From an uncultured Bacteroidales bacterium (GTDB lineage: Bacteria > Bacteroidota > Bacteroidia > Bacteroidales > VadinHA17): DNA of 39,828 bases. A program made the translations under genes and the position numbers. Of the stretch, positions 204 through 39,797 are shown piece after piece. The stretch covers positions 1-39,828 of the forward strand of contig CALMRD010000332.1 in NCBI GenBank assembly GCA_937871625.1, given 5' to 3'. The notes below the pieces were generated by a model. It saw only the letters and a list, made by a program, of their open reading frames with translations, made no database searches and was not told where the DNA came from. Positions within the stretch are counted from its first letter, which is position 1. Every line of letters starts with the position of its first letter.

Positions 204-211
204 CAAATATA
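204..211 (-). promoter_or_regulatory. Bacteroidota -7 promoter element TATATTTG for hup (second copy at 225-232)
   Basis: Matches the TAnnTTTG consensus about 55 nt upstream of the hup ATG. Confidence 0.55.
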
Positions 212-420
212 AAATATTATTTGTCAAATATAGTTGATAAAGATTTTTTTCGCTCCGAAAATGCTGATTTTTTGATATCTATAAAATTATCGGCTCCGAT
301 GCATGTGATTCTTTACCCTTCCCGTGGCCTGCAGCGAGGGCTCCCATCAGCGACGGAGCTCACCCTCTCATTTTTTTTGTAACTTTACAATCTCCATCAA
401 AGAATAATATATTAAGAGGT

Positions 421-7722: not shown

Positions 7723-8811
7723 CTATACATTAAACCGTATGTGCAGAATGTCTCCGTCATCAACCACATAATTTTTTCCTTCCACCGATAGTTTTCCGGC
7801 CTCGCGGCAGGCATGTTCCGACCGGAGTGCAATGAAGTCGGCATATTTCATCACCTCTGCCCTGATGAAACCCCGCTCCAGGTCGGAGTGTATCACCCCG
7901 GCAGCCTGCGGGGCGGTCATCCCCGAGGTAATGGTCCACGCCCTTATTTCCTTGGGACCGACGGTAAAGAAGGTCAACAGGTCAAGCATCTCGTAGGCGG
8001 CCCTGACAAGCTTGTTCACTCCCGGTTCGTCGAGCCCGGCATCACGAAGGAACTCCATCCTGTCAGCCGCCTCGCTCAGGTTGGCTATCTCCGCCTCCAG
8101 GGCACCGGCGATCACCAGCGGCACAGCTCCCCTGGCCGCGAGATACTCCCTGACGGCAGAGACATATTGGTTACCCTTAACGGCAGAGGCCTCATCAACG
8201 TTGCATACAAAAAGAACCGGCTTCACCGTCAGAAGGAAGATGTCATCGACATATCTCTTATCCTCAGGCCTGACCTCCAGGGAAGAGGCATTCCGGAAGC
8301 CCTCCAGGTGCTCCCTGTACCGGTTCAGAACCTCGATCCCGTGCCTGGCATCCTTATCGCCTGTTTTGGCGGCTCGCTCAAGGCGTTGAATCTTTTTTTC
8401 CACTGACTCCACATCCTTGACCTGCAGCTCGAACTCAACATTCTCAAGGTCCCTCACGGGATTGACAGAGCCATTGATGTGCGGCAGCCTGTCGTCATCA
8501 AAGCATCGCAGGACATGTATCAGGGCATCGGTGTTTCGTATCTCTCCCAGCAGCCTGGCACCGGAGCTGTCGCCCTGTCCCCTGGCCAGGCCCGGAATAT
8601 CTACAATATCCACCGTTGTGTGTACCACCCTCTCTGTTGGCTGCAGCTTCTCAAGCTCATAGAGCCTCTGGTCAGGTACCTGTATCACGCCAAGGTTCGC
8701 CTTTACACCTGTACCGTAGGTATCCGTCTCACCGCGGGTGTTGGATATGCAATTGAAGATCGTGGTTTTACCTACGCTCATAATTCCTATAATGCCGCAT
8801 TTCAATGCCAT
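7723..8811 (-). CDS. ychF: YchF/OLA1-family ATPase with divergent G motifs
   Basis: KCGIIG...GKTT, VPDQRL, DIPGL, HVLRCF, NVDE, TFFTVGPKEIRAWT, IHSDLERGFIRAEV, RFNV. Start set at 8811 because a -7 element lies at 8834-8841. Confidence 0.85.
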   Translation of the reverse strand: MALKCGIIGIMSVGKTTIFNCISNTRGETDTYGTGVKANLGVIQVPDQRLYELEKLQPTERVVHTTVDIVDIPGLARGQGDSSGARLLGEIRNTDALIHVLRCFDDDRLPHINGSVNPVRDLENVEFELQVKDVESVEKKIQRLERAAKTGDKDARHGIEVLNRYREHLEGFRNASSLEVRPEDKRYVDDIFLLTVKPVLFVCNVDEASAVKGNQYVSAVREYLAARGAVPLVIAGALEAEIANLSEAADRMEFLRDAGLDEPGVNKLVRAAYEMLDLLTFFTVGPKEIRAWTITSGMTAPQAAGVIHSDLERGFIRAEVMKYADFIALRSEHACREAGKLSVEGKNYVVDDGDILHIRFNV

Positions 8812-8833: not shown

Positions 8834-8841
8834 CAAAGGTA
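8834..8841 (-). promoter_or_regulatory. -7 element TACCTTTG for ychF
   Basis: Exact TAnnTTTG match followed by CA. Confidence 0.7.
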
Positions 8842-8894
8842 CCAAAAAGCTATAAGCAGGCACATGCCGCATCACCGGGGCCGATAGATTTTGC

Positions 8895-8902
8895 TATTTT
8901 TG
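8895..8902 (+). promoter_or_regulatory. -7 element TATTTTTG for the ECF sigma gene
   Basis: Exact TAnnTTTG match, divergent from the ychF element. Confidence 0.6.
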
Positions 8903-8965: not shown

Positions 8966-9508
8966 ATGTTACAGATCACCGAAGATGATATAAAGAAGAT
9001 CATCCAATCGGATGGCGAGAAGGCTTTCCGTATGATAGTCGACAAATACGGATCAAAGCTCTACTGGCATATCCGCCGCATAGTCATAACACATGACGAT
9101 GCCGATGATGTACTGCAGAACACCTTTCTCAATGCCTGGAGGAAAATAGGTTCATTCCGGTTCGAAAGCTCGCTTTACACCTGGCTCTACTCCATCGCCA
9201 CCAATGAGGCGCTGACCCTGCTCAGAAAGAGGGAGAAAGAGAGCAGCATACCGCTTGATGACCTTGAGTCCCTCCTGGGATGGTCAGCGGAAGGCAGCAG
9301 TTACTTTGATGGTGACGAGGCATCCGCCAGGTTGCAGAATGCGATCCTGAAGCTTCCGGATAAGCAGCGGGCAGTATTCAATATGAAATACTTCGACGAC
9401 ATGAGCTACGAGGATATGAGCGGAGTGACAGGCACCTCGGTGGGGGCATTGAAGGCATCATATCACCATGCCGTAAAAAAAATAGAGCAGTTTTTGCAGG
9501 ACGATTAA
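8966..9508 (+). CDS. ECF-type RNA polymerase sigma-70 factor
   Basis: HDDADDVLQNTF, SLYTWLYSIATNE (region 2); LPDKQRAVF, SVGALKASYHHA (region 4). Confidence 0.93.
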   Translation: MLQITEDDIKKIIQSDGEKAFRMIVDKYGSKLYWHIRRIVITHDDADDVLQNTFLNAWRKIGSFRFESSLYTWLYSIATNEALTLLRKREKESSIPLDDLESLLGWSAEGSSYFDGDEASARLQNAILKLPDKQRAVFNMKYFDDMSYEDMSGVTGTSVGALKASYHHAVKKIEQFLQDD

Positions 9509-12742: not shown

Positions 12743-13486
12743 CTATCTGCCGGAGGGGAGCATGGCGGGATTTCTCTCATTGAACTTCCTCAGGTAGACA
12801 AACATCATCTTCTTCTGATTCTTGTTGCGCATTGACACGAACTCCTCATAGAGCTCGGCGTCACGCATGAGCAGTGCTTCAAGATTCTGCAGGTCGTATT
12901 CATATACCTTACCGGTCTCGAAGTCTATCATATACATCTCGAGGTCTGTCCTGGTGGTATTCCGGTTGTAGGGATATCCGTACCCGTATGGGTCATAGTA
13001 GCTGCGGTAGGGACTGTAGTAGTACGGCGAGTAGTATGACCTGTAGGGCGAGTAGTAGGGGTCGTAGTAATTATACGGGTAGTTTCCCGGTGAGGTGGTA
13101 GTCACATCGGCCACAAAGTGGATGATTGAGCCGAAGAAGGTAATGCGGTTGTATGCGCCCTGTACCCTGACGTAGAGGACTCCGTTACGGGCAAAGCCCC
13201 ATATCTCATCCTGCTCTATCTCCTGCCTGATACCCATATTGTCATAGAAATATATCTTTTCCGAGGCAAGTACCTGGTCAAAGAAGTCCTTGTCATTGTA
13301 ATCAACAGAGGTGAAGAGTTTTGCCTTGGGAATAGGGTTGTTGGTCTTGACCTGGTCGAAGTTCAGGTAGATGCCGTCCCTGAAGTTGAAGTCGGGCGTA
13401 TATGCAACAAGAGTATCCCTCTCCTGTGCCCATGCAATGCCTGTGGCAATAAGTACGGCAATCAGTGTCATCATGCTCCTTTTCAT
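12743..13486 (-). CDS. Exported hypothetical protein with a Tyr/Pro/Ser-rich segment
   Basis: Signal peptide MKRSMM...AWA-Q. Start 13486 is supported by the -7 element at 13529-13536. Confidence 0.75.
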   Translation of the reverse strand: MKRSMMTLIAVLIATGIAWAQERDTLVAYTPDFNFRDGIYLNFDQVKTNNPIPKAKLFTSVDYNDKDFFDQVLASEKIYFYDNMGIRQEIEQDEIWGFARNGVLYVRVQGAYNRITFFGSIIHFVADVTTTSPGNYPYNYYDPYYSPYRSYYSPYYYSPYRSYYDPYGYGYPYNRNTTRTDLEMYMIDFETGKVYEYDLQNLEALLMRDAELYEEFVSMRNKNQKKMMFVYLRKFNERNPAMLPSGR

Positions 13487-13528
13487 CACACTCTTTTCAG
13501 ATTCTACCTCAAAAATTGTACCGTAAGG

Positions 13529-13536
13529 CAAAAATA
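13529..13536 (-). promoter_or_regulatory. -7 element TATTTTTG for the Tyr-rich protein gene
   Basis: TAnnTTTG match. Confidence 0.6.
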
Positions 13537-13589
13537 ATCTTTTATGGATACTGAGAGCAACCCCGGCTTTATCTTTATATAAATTCATG

Positions 13590-13597
13590 TATATTTG
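13590..13597 (+). promoter_or_regulatory. -7 element TATATTTG for the hybrid kinase/receiver gene
   Basis: TAnnTTTG match. Confidence 0.6.
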
Positions 13598-13670
13598 AGT
13601 GTCATATCCCTACTGTGCCCGCAATATGCCAAAAGTAACAAAACCTGTTTCGGTTACGCATTCAGAACTG

Positions 13671-36858: not shown

Positions 36859-37233
36859 TTACTTCTTTGGTCTTTTTGCACCGTATTTTGACCTTCTCTG
36901 CTTACGGCCATCAACACCGGAGGTGTCAAGTGCGCCACGGATAAGGTGATAGCGGACGCCCGGAAGGTCCTTGACCCTGCCGCCCCTGATGAGCACGATG
37001 GAGTGCTCCTGGAGATTGTGTCCCTCACCCGGAATATAGGCGTTGACCTCCTTCTGGTTGGTCAGCCTCACCCTGGCTACTTTTCTCATGGCTGAGTTAG
37101 GTTTCTTTGGCGTGGTAGTGTAGACACGCACACAGACTCCCCTCCTCTGCGGGCATGAGTCAAGCGCAGGTGCCTTGCTTTTGTCTACCAGCTTCTTGCG
37201 GCCTTTTCTTACTAACTGCTGAATTGTTGGCAT
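36859..37233 (-). CDS. rpsL: 30S ribosomal protein S12
   Basis: [23 protein letters not shown]. Confidence 0.99.
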
Positions 37234-37522
37234 AATTCTCTTTTAATTAATTTTCCTTTTCTATATACTGGTCTGCAAAAAAATCATTCTTCACCGTCAC
37301 AACAGGCAATCTTCATTGCCTCCCGTTACGCACGCTGCTCCCGCGTGATGCGTCAACGGCAGTCCGTCGGCACAATGCTGCGGGGGCAAAGTTTTCTGAA
37401 GATGTAACTTATGGTTTGTAAGTTATTTACAGGAATTTCTTCCCGACCGCTCCCATCGACCTCTTTTCTAAACTTACACTCTGAAGAAGTGACCGGTACT
37501 CCTGTTTTTCAAAAAACCGGTG

Positions 37523-37530
37523 CAAAGATA
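37523..37530 (-). promoter_or_regulatory. -7 element TATCTTTG for the rpsL operon
   Basis: TAnnTTTG followed by CA, about 290 nt upstream of rpsL. Confidence 0.65.
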
Positions 37531-37583
37531 AAGAAATATTTTTCAAACAACAGCTACTTTTATGATCTCTTTTGAAAATTTGT

Positions 37584-37591
37584 TATTTTTG
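37584..37591 (+). promoter_or_regulatory. -7 element TATTTTTG for the EF-G paralog
   Basis: TAnnTTTG match 49 nt upstream of the ATG. Confidence 0.65.
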
Positions 37592-37640
37592 CGCTCCCTA
37601 CGAGATCAACACACATATAATAAAATAATTAAAGCCGAAG

Positions 37641-39797
37641 ATGAAGACTTACTCAACAGACCACCTCAGAAACATAGCTCTGCTGGGAAACTCGGGCTCA
37701 GGAAAGACAACCCTTGCAGAAGCGATGCTGTTCAACGGGGGGGTCATTGAGAGACGGGGTTCAGTGGAAGCCAGGAACACCGTCTCTGACTATAAGCCTA
37801 TAGAGCAGGAGAACCGTAACTCAGTATTTTCCACAGTGCTCTACGCCGAGTACAACGACAAGAAGGTAAACATACTTGACACCCCGGGTCTGGATGACTT
37901 CTCCGGCGGGGTAATATCATCGATGTATGCTGCTGACACCGTCATGCTGGTCATCAACGTTCAGAACGGCGTTGAGGTGGGGACGGAGATCCAGTTCAGG
38001 CATGCCGACAAGTTTCACAAACCCCTCATCATAGTCGTCAACGGCCTCGATCACGAGAAGGCCAACTTTGAAAAGACGGTTGAGATGCTTCATGAGAGGT
38101 TCGGTAGTGATGTCACCCTGGCACAGTTCCCGGTGAATGAGGGTCTGGGCTTCAACACCATCATTGATGTTGTAAGCATGAAGATGCTGCGTTACGGCAA
38201 AGAGGGAGGCAAGGCGGAGGTTCTTGATATTCCCGCCGAACACCAGCCGAAGGCTGAGGAGCTTCACGCCGCGCTCACCGAGAAGGTGGCCGAGAGCGAC
38301 GAGGAGCTGATGGAACTCTTCTTTGCCAATGACAAGCTTACCGAGGAGGAGATCAGCAGGGGCATACGTGAGGGGCTGCTCAAGAGGGGCATCTTCCCTG
38401 TCTTCTGCGTCTCTGCCAAAGGCAATGTGGGGGTCGACAGGCTGCTGCAGTTCATCACTGCTGCCGCACCGTCGCCGTCTGACATGCCGGCAGTGAAGAA
38501 CTCGAAGGGGAATGAGGTTAAGTGTGATGCTTCCGGCGCTGCCTCGGTATTTGTCTTCAAGACCACCATCGAGGAACACATAGGAGAGATCAACTATTTC
38601 AGGGTCATGTCGGGCAAGATCAACGAGAACCTCGACGTGGTCAACACCAGCAACGGCACCAGGGAGCGACTCTCCCAGATCTTCATATGTGCCGGCAAGA
38701 ACCGCACCCGTGTTCCGGAGATACATGCCGGTGACGTCGGCGGCTTCGTCAAGCTGAAGAACACCAAGACCAACCACACTCTCAATACCGTGGGCAACGA
38801 CTGGGTCTATAACAATATGCAGTTTCCCGCTCCCAAGTATCGCACAGCCATCAAGCCTGTGAATGAGAGCGACGAGGAGAAGCTGGGCGAGGCGCTGAGC
38901 CGCATGCACCAGGAGGACCCGACCATCATCGTCGAGTATTCCAAGGAGCTGAAGCAGATCATCATCCACGGCCAGGGCGAGTATCATCTCAACATCCTGA
39001 AGTGGCATCTTGACAGCATATTCAAGATTGAGACACAGTACATTGCCCCCAAGATACCATACCGTGAGACCATCACCAAAACCGCACAGGCCGACTACCG
39101 TCACAAGAAGCAGTCGGGCGGCGCCGGTCAGTTCGGTGAGGTTCATATGATCATCGAGCCGTTTGAGGAGGGTTCGGAGGCCAAGTCGATGATGAAGATC
39201 GCCGGCAAGGAGATCAAGCTGGCCAACCGCGACAAGGAGGAGATCGATCTCCCGTGGGGCGGCAAGCTCATCTATATGAACTGTATTGTTGGCGGCTCCA
39301 TTGACGCCCGTTTTATGCCGGCCATCCTGAAGGGCATCATGGAGAAGATGGAGGTAGGTCCTCTTACAGGCTCCTACGCCCGTGACATCAGGGTATATGT
39401 CTATGACGGCAAGATGCACCCGGTTGACTCAAACGAGATATCCTTCCGTCTGGCAGGGCGTAATGCCTTCAGCACCGCCTTCAAGAATGCCGGTCCGAAG
39501 ATCCTTGAGCCGGTCTATGATGTTGAGATCATGGTTCCCTCCGACCGTATGGGTGATGTCATCAGCGACCTGCAGGGGCGCCGTGGCATGGTGCTGGGCA
39601 TGACCAGCGACAAAGGTTTCGAGGTCATCAAGGCCAGGGTTCCCCTTGCTGAGATGAACAAGTACTCTACCGCTCTCAGCTCGCTCACCGGCGGCCGCGC
39701 CATGTACACCATGAAGTTTGCCGAGTACGCCCAGGTCCCCGGCGAAGTCCAGGATGCTGTCATCAAGGCCTACGAAGCCGAAGAGGAAGAGGAATAG
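37641..39797 (+). CDS. fusA2: Elongation factor G paralog, EF-G2 type
   Basis: Full EF-G architecture with GNSGSGKTT, no RGITI, DTPGLDDF, NGLD, GQGEYHL and a domain IV insertion ending LPWGGKL. Confidence 0.9.
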   Translation: MKTYSTDHLRNIALLGNSGSGKTTLAEAMLFNGGVIERRGSVEARNTVSDYKPIEQENRNSVFSTVLYAEYNDKKVNILDTPGLDDFSGGVISSMYAADTVMLVINVQNGVEVGTEIQFRHADKFHKPLIIVVNGLDHEKANFEKTVEMLHERFGSDVTLAQFPVNEGLGFNTIIDVVSMKMLRYGKEGGKAEVLDIPAEHQPKAEELHAALTEKVAESDEELMELFFANDKLTEEEISRGIREGLLKRGIFPVFCVSAKGNVGVDRLLQFITAAAPSPSDMPAVKNSKGNEVKCDASGAASVFVFKTTIEEHIGEINYFRVMSGKINENLDVVNTSNGTRERLSQIFICAGKNRTRVPEIHAGDVGGFVKLKNTKTNHTLNTVGNDWVYNNMQFPAPKYRTAIKPVNESDEEKLGEALSRMHQEDPTIIVEYSKELKQIIIHGQGEYHLNILKWHLDSIFKIETQYIAPKIPYRETITKTAQADYRHKKQSGGAGQFGEVHMIIEPFEEGSEAKSMMKIAGKEIKLANRDKEEIDLPWGGKLIYMNCIVGGSIDARFMPAILKGIMEKMEVGPLTGSYARDIRVYVYDGKMHPVDSNEISFRLAGRNAFSTAFKNAGPKILEPVYDVEIMVPSDRMGDVISDLQGRRGMVLGMTSDKGFEVIKARVPLAEMNKYSTALSSLTGGRAMYTMKFAEYAQVPGEVQDAVIKAYEAEEEEE

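What the first reader, a model, noticed from the sequence alone, without database searches (positions are those of the whole stretch)
8834..8902. Three unrelated divergent gene pairs have back-to-back -7 promoter elements exactly 53 bp apart
Seen by manual count: ychF/ECF (CAAAGGTA 8834-8841, TATTTTTG 8895-8902); Tyr-rich gene/hybrid kinase (CAAAAATA 13529-13536, TATATTTG 13590-13597); rpsL/fusA2 (CAAAGATA 37523-37530, TATTTTTG 37584-37591). Each is CAAAnnTA-N53-TAnnTTTG. The spacers show no obvious sequence similarity, so this is conserved geometry rather than a repeat. 53 bp is about five helical turns and would bring the two -33 regions close together. Inference: a fixed-geometry bidirectional promoter in which two polymerases cooperate or exclude each other. 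I do not know of a description for Bacteroidota. Caveats: n=3, and the fourth divergent pair (hup/ssb) does not fit.
Basis: partly seen in the sequence, partly recalled or inferred. Interest (0 to 1): 0.75.

Follow-up and report, generated by a model that had tools for sequence, protein, structure and literature searches.

The report
Helically phased back-to-back Bacteroidales promoters
Three pairs of opposite-facing promoters in this uncultured Bacteroidales genome really do sit exactly 53 bases apart, but 53 is not a fixed design: it is one favoured step in a weak spacing rule that repeats once per turn of the DNA helix.

Summary
CAAAnnTA-N53-TAnnTTTG occurs at 8834-8902, 13529-13597 and 37523-37591, each between divergent genes.

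A fixed 53-bp geometry is not supported.
- The rest of the 3.48-Mb genome holds only 2 more strict cases.
- Orthologous spacers vary: ychF/ECF gives 53, 53, 52, 52, 12, 109 and 61; the rpsL-side pair gives 52 in 23 of 29 relatives.
- In 150 other Bacteroidales genomes, spacer 53 is only 9.5% above its eight neighbours.

The same counts do show helical phasing. Per-bp counts:

| Spacer | Count per bp |
|---|---|
| 32-33 | 478.5 |
| 37-38 | 370.5 |
| 42-43 | 447 |
| 47-48 | 351.5 |
| 53 | 420 |
| 57-59 | 366.3 |
| 62-64 | 411.7 |

A cosine fit gives a 10.5-bp period with peaks at 32.6, 43.1, 53.6 and 64.1. Peak bands exceed trough bands 1.21-fold (CI 1.12-1.30; Wilcoxon p = 9e-6 across genomes). 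A composition control over five bands is flat at 1.04.

These are therefore ordinary back-to-back primary-sigma promoters. The triple 53 is largely coincidence on a favoured helical phase. This scan noted similar phasing before on other DNA (e1-5267470). No transcription start site was mapped, and the mechanism is inferred.

The parts
8834..8841 (-). -7 box (TACCTTTG on the minus strand) of the ychF promoter, 22 nt upstream of the ychF ATG at 8811
   Evidence: PWM 13.8; YchF by Pfam
8842..8894 (.). 53-bp spacer of pair 1. Each box has a TTTG one base upstream. No TTTG at the -33 position.
   Evidence: Orthologous spacers are 53, 53, 52, 52, 12, 109, 61.
8895..8902 (+). -7 box (TATTTTTG) of the ECF-type sigma factor gene, 63 nt upstream of the ATG at 8966
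   Evidence: (PWM 11.9)
13529..13536 (-). -7 box (TATTTTTG on the minus strand) upstream of the Tyr-rich secreted-looking protein. It lies inside the longest ORF form (start 13588), which is therefore probably not the real start.
   Evidence: PWM 11.9. One relative (L008) lacks that ATG and has a TAA there.
13590..13597 (+). -7 box (TATATTTG) upstream of the HisKA+receiver protein, 28 nt from the ATG at 13626. Weak by PWM (7.4). A rival plus-strand hit at 13570 scores 8.3.
   Evidence: The spacer is 53 in the 5 related loci that hold a strict pair there.
37523..37530 (-). -7 box (TATCTTTG on the minus strand), 289 nt upstream of rpsL. It is followed at once by a roughly 140-nt element that is nearly invariant across the genus.
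   Evidence: (PWM 14.7). A strict box is present in only 3 of 29 relatives.
37584..37591 (+). -7 box (TATTTTTG) of the EF-G paralogue, 49 nt upstream of the ATG at 37641
   Evidence: PWM 15.1. Invariant in 29 of 29 relatives aligned.
37276..37283 (-). second, proximal box-like site 42 nt upstream of the rpsL ATG. Candidate proximal rpsL promoter.
   Evidence: PWM 9.5. TTTTGCAG is conserved in the 12-species alignment, and the position reads TACTTTTG in L105, L108, L109 and L110.
204..387 (.). fourth divergent pair (HU / SSB): boxes starting at 204 (minus) and 380 (plus), spacer 168

Best explanation
The three sites are ordinary back-to-back promoter pairs of the Bacteroidota primary sigma factor (-7 box TAnnTTTG). 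Each pair serves two divergent transcription units that share their upstream DNA. There is no dedicated 53-bp module. Across Bacteroidales the spacer between two back-to-back -7 boxes is broadly distributed, but it is modulated with the period of the DNA helix (10.5 bp), with maxima near 10.5n+1 (32-33, 42-43, 53-54, 63-64). Spacer 53 lies on a maximum, so three identical values in one window are a coincidence made somewhat more likely by this phasing.

Shown: the boxes and their positions; the non-conservation of 53 in orthologues; the order-wide periodicity and its absence in a composition control.

Inferred: each promoter prefers A/T-rich patches at one-turn intervals upstream of its -7 box, probably bending or polymerase contacts on one face of the helix. 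When two promoters share that DNA, the same patches, including the partner's own A/T-rich box region, can serve both only if the boxes are in helical register.
For: Promoter identity:
- Strict TAnnTTTG is 9.4-fold denser in intergenic DNA, and its final G peaks 20-30 nt before predicted start codons.
- An EM motif search recovers the box in about 59% of 1762 upstream regions.
- Divergent-orientation strict pairs outnumber convergent ones, 88 to 36, at spacers of 8-120 bp.

No fixed 53:
- 5 strict cases in 3.48 Mb, 3 of them in this window.
- 0 of 77 pairs in distant loci L010-L080.
- Orthologous spacers: site 1 gives 53, 53, 52, 52, 12, 109, 61. Site 3 gives 52 in 23, 53 in 5 and 54 in 1 of 29 relatives, with the left box degenerate in 26.

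Phasing, from the same 150 Bacteroidales genomes (148 families), strict pattern, counts per bp:
- 32-33: 478.5; 37-38: 370.5; 42-43: 447; 47-48: 351.5; 49-52: 375.8; 53: 420; 54-57: 391.5; 57-59: 366.3; 62-64: 411.7.
- Cosine fit: period 10.5, peaks at 32.6, 43.1, 53.6, 64.1, amplitude 0.11. Chi-square is 5.8 with the cosine and 61.5 without it.
- Per genome, peak bands exceed trough bands in 93 genomes, fall below in 53 and tie in 4. Ratio 1.21, bootstrap CI 1.12-1.30, Wilcoxon p = 9e-6.
- The backwards-pattern control over five bands has ratio 1.04 (CI 0.96-1.14). After subtracting it, peaks are about 1.4 times troughs.

Own genome: Rayleigh R at period 10.0 is 4.5 (n = 88 strict pairs) with phase 3.2.

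A/T patches:
- In 325 strong boxes whose upstream neighbour is co-directional, A+T peaks near -5, -15, -37 and weakly near -27, -48, -58. The top period is 10.5, power 4.9.
- Shared register then predicts spacers near 41.5, 52 and 62.5. This is my arithmetic, and it falls within about 1.5 bp of the fit.
Against: - The modulation is small: 11% of raw counts. Strict-pattern counts include many chance matches, with the control at roughly half of the forward counts.
- In this genome alone the periodicity does not survive a search over periods. The jitter null gives P = 0.2-0.3 for the PWM sets, and the strict set peaks at 15.3 bp instead.
- The A/T-patch signal is weak: power 4.9 here and 3.3 in 517 boxes of distant loci. 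Its predicted phase is about 1.5 bp off the fit.
- Site 2 keeps exactly 53 in all 5 related loci that hold a strict pair, with about 20 variable central bases and no indel. That could reflect a local length constraint.
- No transcription start site is mapped. The public RNA runs were held only as contigs.
- None of the six boxes has the canonical -33 TTTG at 19-21 bp.
Confidence: 0.72

Rival explanations
1. Pure coincidence on a flat spacing distribution. The promoters are placed independently, and neither 53 nor any helical phase is favoured.
For: - In the own genome the chance that some single bin reaches the observed maximum is 0.12.
- Only 2 strict 53-bp cases lie outside the window.
- 0 of 77 pairs in distant loci have 53.
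- The scan reads very many windows, so a triple coincidence somewhere is expected (inference).
Against: The order-level counts alternate high and low over seven bands with a 10.5-bp period. Chi-square is 61.5 for a smooth trend against 5.8 with a cosine. The per-genome Wilcoxon p is 9e-6, and the control is flat.
Confidence: 0.1
2. One reading: a dedicated bidirectional promoter module with the two -7 boxes held exactly 53 bp apart, so that two polymerases cooperate or exclude each other.
For: - Three exact cases in one window.
- 53 is the modal bin in the own genome.
- Site 2 keeps 53 in 5 of 5 related loci with a strict pair.
Against: - There is no sharp peak. Spacer 53 is 9.5% above its eight neighbours in 150 genomes, and 32-33 and 42-43 are higher.
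- Sites 1 and 3 change spacing in relatives, including 12, 61 and 109 bp.
- The spacers share no sequence.
Confidence: 0.03
3. The phasing is real but comes from the polymerases rather than from A/T patches. Two holoenzymes, or their alpha C-terminal domains, bound back to back fit without clash or touch favourably only at certain rotational settings. Selection therefore acts on the relative face of the helix.
For: - The period equals the helical repeat (10.5).
- The per-bp excess is largest at the shortest spacers measured: 478.5 at 32-33 against 411.7 at 62-64. Contact-dependent effects would behave this way.
- The A/T-patch signal is weak.
Against: - Phasing persists at 62-64 bp. There, box centres are about 70 bp apart and core footprints should no longer touch. 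This rests on recalled general knowledge of roughly -55 to +20 footprints, not on a test here.
- No structural or biochemical data were available.
Confidence: 0.25
4. At sites 2 and 3 the spacer is conserved because it holds binding sites for a regulator, or for another promoter element, shared by the two genes. The equal length is a by-product of sequence conservation.
For: - Site 2: blocks of about 23 nt and 10 nt next to the boxes are conserved in five relatives.
- Site 3: the whole spacer is highly conserved in 29 relatives, with only +/-1-bp changes.
Against: - No repeat or palindrome was identified, and no regulator is assigned.
- Site 1, with the same length, is poorly conserved and changes length freely.
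- This reading does not explain the order-wide periodicity.
Confidence: 0.25

Closest known systems
Bacteroidota primary-sigma (sigma-ABfr) promoters: -7 TAnnTTTG and -33 TTTG (B. fragilis consensus; confirmed by dRNA-seq in B. thetaiotaomicron). Seen in passages and section 8 of PMC7366714.
   Same: All six elements are exact TAnnTTTG boxes, in intergenic DNA, oriented towards the flanking genes.
   Different: None of the six has TTTG at 19-21 bp upstream. Genome-wide only 56 of 954 strong boxes do, while a TTTG 1-2 bp upstream is as common. That paper's text as read says nothing on spacing of divergent pairs. Its supplements, which hold the TSS tables, were closed.
Back-to-back divergent promoters, one of the three classical classes alongside overlapping and face-to-face (Beck and Warren review, recalled, not read here)
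   Same: Two non-overlapping promoters on opposite strands fire away from each other and share upstream DNA.
   Different: As far as I recall, the classical description carries no general helical-phase rule for the distance between the two promoters.
Symmetry-based bidirectional promoters (Warman et al. 2021). Seen only as described in passages of PMC10268837.
   Same: Divergent transcription from one short region, found most often between divergent genes.
   Different: There the two start sites are 7-25 bp apart (mode 18), because one near-symmetrical -10 element serves both strands. Here the boxes are separate and 53 bp apart, so this is not a member.
   Same: Same motif pair, same idea and the same phase. 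My fitted series, 10.5n+1.1, gives 11.6, 22.1, 32.6, 43.1, 53.6.
   Different: That note describes spacings occurring only at those values within one genus. Across 150 genera I find a weak modulation (about 1.2-fold raw, about 1.4-fold above control), not an exclusive rule. I did not re-examine its genome.
Phased A-tracts and UP-element-like A/T-rich DNA upstream of bacterial promoters (recalled general knowledge, no paper read here)
   Same: A+T-rich patches recur about every 10.5 bp upstream of the -7 box, even where there is no divergent partner.
   Different: The signal here is weak and unassigned to any contact. No alpha-CTD or curvature data exist for this sigma/polymerase in what I read.

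Membership tests
Bacteroidota sigma-ABfr promoter | -7 element TAnnTTTG | tested here: met
   Six exact boxes. PWM scores are 7.4-15.1.
Bacteroidota sigma-ABfr promoter | Placed in intergenic DNA, a short distance upstream of the gene it serves | tested here: met
   9.4-fold intergenic enrichment, with a peak 20-30 nt before start codons. Box-to-ATG gaps here are 22, 63, 28 and 49 nt, about 42-50 nt for the Tyr-rich gene, and 289 nt for rpsL.
Bacteroidota sigma-ABfr promoter | -33 element TTTG 19-21 bp upstream of the -7 box | tested here: not met
   0 of 6 boxes. Genome-wide, 56 of 954 strong boxes have TTTG at gap 19-20. [quoted passage not shown]
Bacteroidota sigma-ABfr promoter | Transcription starts a few bases downstream of the box | not testable with these tools
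   The public RNA runs were held only as contigs. RNA-library contigs cover 37099-37453 and 37310-37497, upstream of rpsL, which is compatible with a start near the distal box but does not map it.
   5 of 88 strict pairs in the own genome, 3 of them from this window. In 150 genomes: 420 at 53, against 375.8 and 391.5 per bp beside it, and 447 and 478.5 per bp at 42-43 and 32-33.
   Site 1: 53, 53, 52, 52, 12, 109, 61. Site 3: 52 in 23 of 29 relatives. Site 2 alone keeps 53, in 5 of 5.
Symmetry-based bidirectional promoter (Warman type) | One near-symmetrical -10-type element serving both strands, with start sites 7-25 bp apart | tested here: not met
   Two separate boxes with 53 bp between them. 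Definition taken from passages of PMC10268837.
Helically phased back-to-back promoters (scan note e1-5267470) | Spacers cluster at one phase of a roughly 10.5-bp period | tested here: met
   Order level: period 10.5, peaks at 32.6, 43.1, 53.6, 64.1, ratio 1.21, p = 9e-6, control flat. All three spacers of the window (53) lie within 1 bp of a fitted peak.
Helically phased back-to-back promoters (scan note e1-5267470) | The same periodicity detectable within this genome alone | tested here: inconclusive
   Rayleigh R is 3.4-4.5 at period 10.0 with phase 2-3, but P = 0.2-0.3 for the PWM sets after searching periods 6-16. G000 strict counts are 14 in the 8 peak positions against 5 in the 7 trough positions.

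The most novel reading that the evidence does not exclude
Throughout Bacteroidales, back-to-back primary-sigma promoters obey a face-of-the-helix rule. The distance between their -7 boxes is biased to 10.5n+1 bp over at least 32-64 bp. The reason would be that two polymerases share, and must both be correctly oriented on, the same phased A/T-rich upstream DNA. That would be a general, undescribed layer of promoter architecture, and it could couple the expression of divergent neighbours.
Probability: 0.55. Interest if true: 0.6.

Novelty: new variant of a known kind. Interest (0 to 1): 0.45.

Why it matters
Divergent gene pairs make up a large share of bacterial operon boundaries: 376 of about 2990 predicted gene junctions in this genome. 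If the two promoters of such pairs are rotationally coupled, three things follow.
- Spacer length becomes a design parameter for Bacteroides synthetic biology, for example dual-reporter or dual-expression cassettes.
- Spacer length becomes a useful prior for promoter prediction in the many uncultured Bacteroidota that lack transcriptome data.
- It hints that upstream DNA shape contributes to recognition by this unusual sigma factor, whose -33 element is weak or absent in many lineages.

The negative result matters too. A striking triple coincidence in one window is not evidence of a dedicated element.

Tried and rejected
- Whole-window dinucleotide shuffles give 0 expected matches. I set this aside as the wrong null, because the boxes are promoter elements concentrated in intergenic DNA.
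- The first genome search with a wide gap (40-70) lists too few matches to build a histogram. I switched to narrow bands and used the whole counts.
- -33 element geometry as the cause of a preferred spacer was rejected. The six promoters lack -33 TTTG, and adjacent or interdigitated -33 boxes would predict 38-48 bp by my arithmetic, not a periodic series.
- The long ORF form of the Tyr-rich gene (start 13588) could have explained the indel-free site 2 spacer as coding sequence. This is unlikely: one relative (L008) has no ATG and an in-frame TAA there, and the box at 13529 would lie inside it.
- Rfam over the whole window gave no match at gathering score, so the conserved region upstream of rpsL is no described leader.
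- RNA evidence: 4 runs were laid, all as contigs. There are no starts or strands, and one run (X1) is probably DNA. None of the three RNA runs laid anything on 37498-37660, which proves nothing.
- The A/T periodicity in distant loci is weak (power 3.3) and does not add much.
- Literature searches for a described helical-phase rule of divergent bacterial promoters found none on that point among the titles and abstracts listed. Only listings were seen for those hits. Subscription journals are not covered.
- A paper reading failed on a term beginning with a minus sign. I repeated it without that term.

Full report
**1. Observation**

- CAAAGGTA 8834-8841 and TATTTTTG 8895-8902
- CAAAAATA 13529-13536 and TATATTTG 13590-13597
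- CAAAGATA 37523-37530 and TATTTTTG 37584-37591

The pattern CAAAnnTA-N53-TAnnTTTG matches three times in the window and never in 100 dinucleotide shuffles. Pfam confirms the flanking genes:
- YchF and an ECF-type sigma factor
- a Tyr-rich protein without a family, and a HisKA+receiver protein
- ribosomal protein S12 and an EF-G paralogue
- the fourth divergent pair is HU/SSB

The organism is an uncultured Bacteroidales bacterium. This follows from the titles of the closest YchF loci. The genome is 3.48 Mb in 411 contigs with 50.8% G+C.

**2. Are these promoters?**

I made crude gene calls: 2993 genes, 91% coding.
- Strict TAnnTTTG is 9.4 times denser in intergenic DNA than in coding DNA, and it peaks 20-30 nt before start codons.
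- An EM search recovers the box in about 59% of 1762 upstream regions.
- The -33 TTTG is weak in this genome: 56 of 954 strong boxes have it at gap 19-20. A TTTG 1-2 bp upstream of the box is as common.
- None of the six boxes here has a -33 TTTG at 19-21 bp.

- The left box of pair 3 lies 289 nt from rpsL. A second box-like site at 37276 lies 42 nt from the ATG.
- The kinase-side box of pair 2 scores low, at 7.4.

No start site could be mapped. RNA-library contigs from two studies cover 37099-37453 and 37310-37497, upstream of the proximal box. That fits use of the distal box but does not prove it.

**3. Is 53 special in this genome?**

- Strict motif: 5 of 88 divergent-orientation pairs with spacers of 8-120 bp have 53, and 3 of those are this window's. 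Spacer 55 has 4.
- PWM, best box per side in the 376 divergent regions: 7 of 169 pairs with spacers of 0-150 bp have 53, against about 2 expected from a smoothed distribution.
- The chance that some bin reaches 7 is 0.12. Without the window's contig the count is 5 of 166 (P = 0.047).

This is suggestive at best.

**4. Is 53 conserved in orthologues?**

- Site 1 (ychF/ECF), among the nine closest loci: 53 (L001, L002), 52 (L003, L004), 12 (L005), 109 (L006) and 61 (L009). L008 lacks a strict ECF-side box, and L007 has another neighbour.
- Site 2: the 5 of those 9 loci that show a strict pair all have 53. The flanks are conserved and about 20 central bases vary without indels. I did not examine why the other four show none.
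- Site 3: 29 species of the genus were aligned.
  - The EF-G-side box is invariant.
  - The left box is strict in only 3 relatives (53, 53, 54).
  - The other 26 read CAAAGAAA or CAAAGTAA, with one base fewer.
  - By my reading of the alignment the spacer is 52 in 23 relatives, 53 in 5 and 54 in 1.

So exactness is not maintained at two of the three sites.

**5. Other Bacteroidota**

In 1.09 Mb of more distant loci (L010-L080), 0 of 77 strict pairs have 53.

I then counted the strict pattern in the same 150 Bacteroidales genomes, which come from 148 families. I took the whole counts from the genome search and always excluded the own genome.

| Spacer (bp) | Count per bp |
|---|---|
| 32-33 | 478.5 |
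| 37-38 | 370.5 |
| 42-43 | 447 |
| 47-48 | 351.5 |
| 49-52 | 375.8 |
| 53 | 420 |
| 54-57 | 391.5 |
| 57-59 | 366.3 |
| 62-64 | 411.7 |

Spacer 53 is only 9.5% above its eight neighbours. There is no sharp peak, and 32-33 and 42-43 are higher.

**6. What the counts do show**

A note from an earlier agent of this scan (e1-5267470) reported spacers of 12-13, 22-23 and 32-33 in another Bacteroidales genus. That led me to choose bands at predicted peaks and troughs.
- The counts alternate as predicted.
- A cosine on a linear trend fits with period 10.5 bp, peaks at 32.6, 43.1, 53.6 and 64.1, and amplitude 0.11. Chi-square is 5.8 with the cosine and 61.5 without it.
- Per genome, peak bands exceed trough bands in 93 genomes, fall below in 53 and tie in 4. 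The ratio is 1.21 (bootstrap CI 1.12-1.30), Wilcoxon p = 9e-6.
- On five bands the ratio was 1.18, and 1.13 without the five largest contributors.
- The tool's composition control is the pattern read backwards. Summed for five of the seven test bands, it has a ratio of 1.04 (CI 0.96-1.14). After subtraction, peaks are about 1.4 times troughs.
- In the own genome the same period and phase appear weakly: Rayleigh R = 4.5 at period 10.0, phase 3.2, n = 88. They do not survive a search over periods for the PWM sets.

Caveats:
- The genomes are related.
- The counts mix real promoters with chance matches.
- Bands rather than single bases were counted, apart from 53.

**7. Mechanism (inferred)**

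I took 325 strong boxes whose upstream neighbour is co-directional, so that no divergent partner is present. There, A+T content peaks near -5, -15 and -37, and weakly near -27, -48 and -58. The strongest period is 10.5, power 4.9. The same period is weakly on top in 517 boxes of distant loci, power 3.3.

If each promoter prefers such patches on one face of the helix, two promoters sharing upstream DNA satisfy both preferences only at spacers near 10.5n-0.5. This is my arithmetic, and it falls about 1.5 bp from the fitted phase. A direct polymerase-polymerase effect is an open alternative. Neither mechanism was tested.

**8. Comparison with what is known**

- The boxes are members of the Bacteroidota sigma-ABfr promoter class in their -7 element, but not in the -33 element (passages and section 8 of PMC7366714).
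- The arrangement is the classical back-to-back class of divergent promoters (recalled).
- It is not the symmetry-based bidirectional promoter, in which start sites are 7-25 bp apart (passages of PMC10268837).
- Three full-text searches (listings only) turned up no paper describing helical phasing of the distance between divergent bacterial promoters. Subscription journals and supplements were not covered.

**9. Verdict**

The interpretation as a fixed 53-bp module is wrong. The remark about helical turns points at something real but weak and general. The window's triple 53 is best read as coincidence on a favoured phase.

Noticed in passing
window 37234-37516 (minus strand), with L082-L110: The 289 nt between the distal box and rpsL are conserved across the genus. 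The whole rpsL to EF-G-paralogue stretch aligns at 76-96% identity in 29 species. The first roughly 140 nt after the box are nearly invariant, with invariant hairpins, one of them right at the predicted 5' end. A variable hairpin follows, with compensatory changes among the 7 pairs that show them. There is no Rfam match. It may be an undescribed leader or small RNA of the S12 operon.
   Followed up: partly
window 37276-37283 (minus strand): A second, conserved box-like site lies 42 nt upstream of the rpsL ATG. It reads as a strict TAnnTTTG in four of the aligned relatives. rpsL therefore probably has a proximal promoter of its own, and the distal box may serve a separate upstream transcript.
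   Followed up: partly
genome-wide (G000): In this genome a TTTG 1-2 bp upstream of the -7 box (66 of 954 strong boxes) is as frequent as the canonical -33 TTTG (56 of 954). The positions just upstream of the box are strongly T-rich. This looks like an extended -7 element.
   Followed up: no
window 12743-13588 (minus strand): A protein with no Pfam family. It has a signal-peptide-like start at an internal Met and a Tyr/Pro/Ser-rich repeat region (YYSPY-type). The annotated longest ORF start at 13588 is probably spurious.
   Followed up: no
G072 (order-level tables): One genome shows the phasing far more strongly than the rest. Its counts are 33, 8, 30, 8, 9, 16 and 39 in bands 32-33, 37-38, 42-43, 47-48, 53, 57-59 and 62-64. 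It would be a good subject for a single-genome study. Dispersed repeats could contribute and were not checked.
   Followed up: no
window 13630-13637 (minus strand): A strong minus-strand box (PWM 11.2) lies just inside the 5' end of the kinase gene, facing the kinase promoter. It could be an antisense or face-to-face promoter.
   Followed up: no
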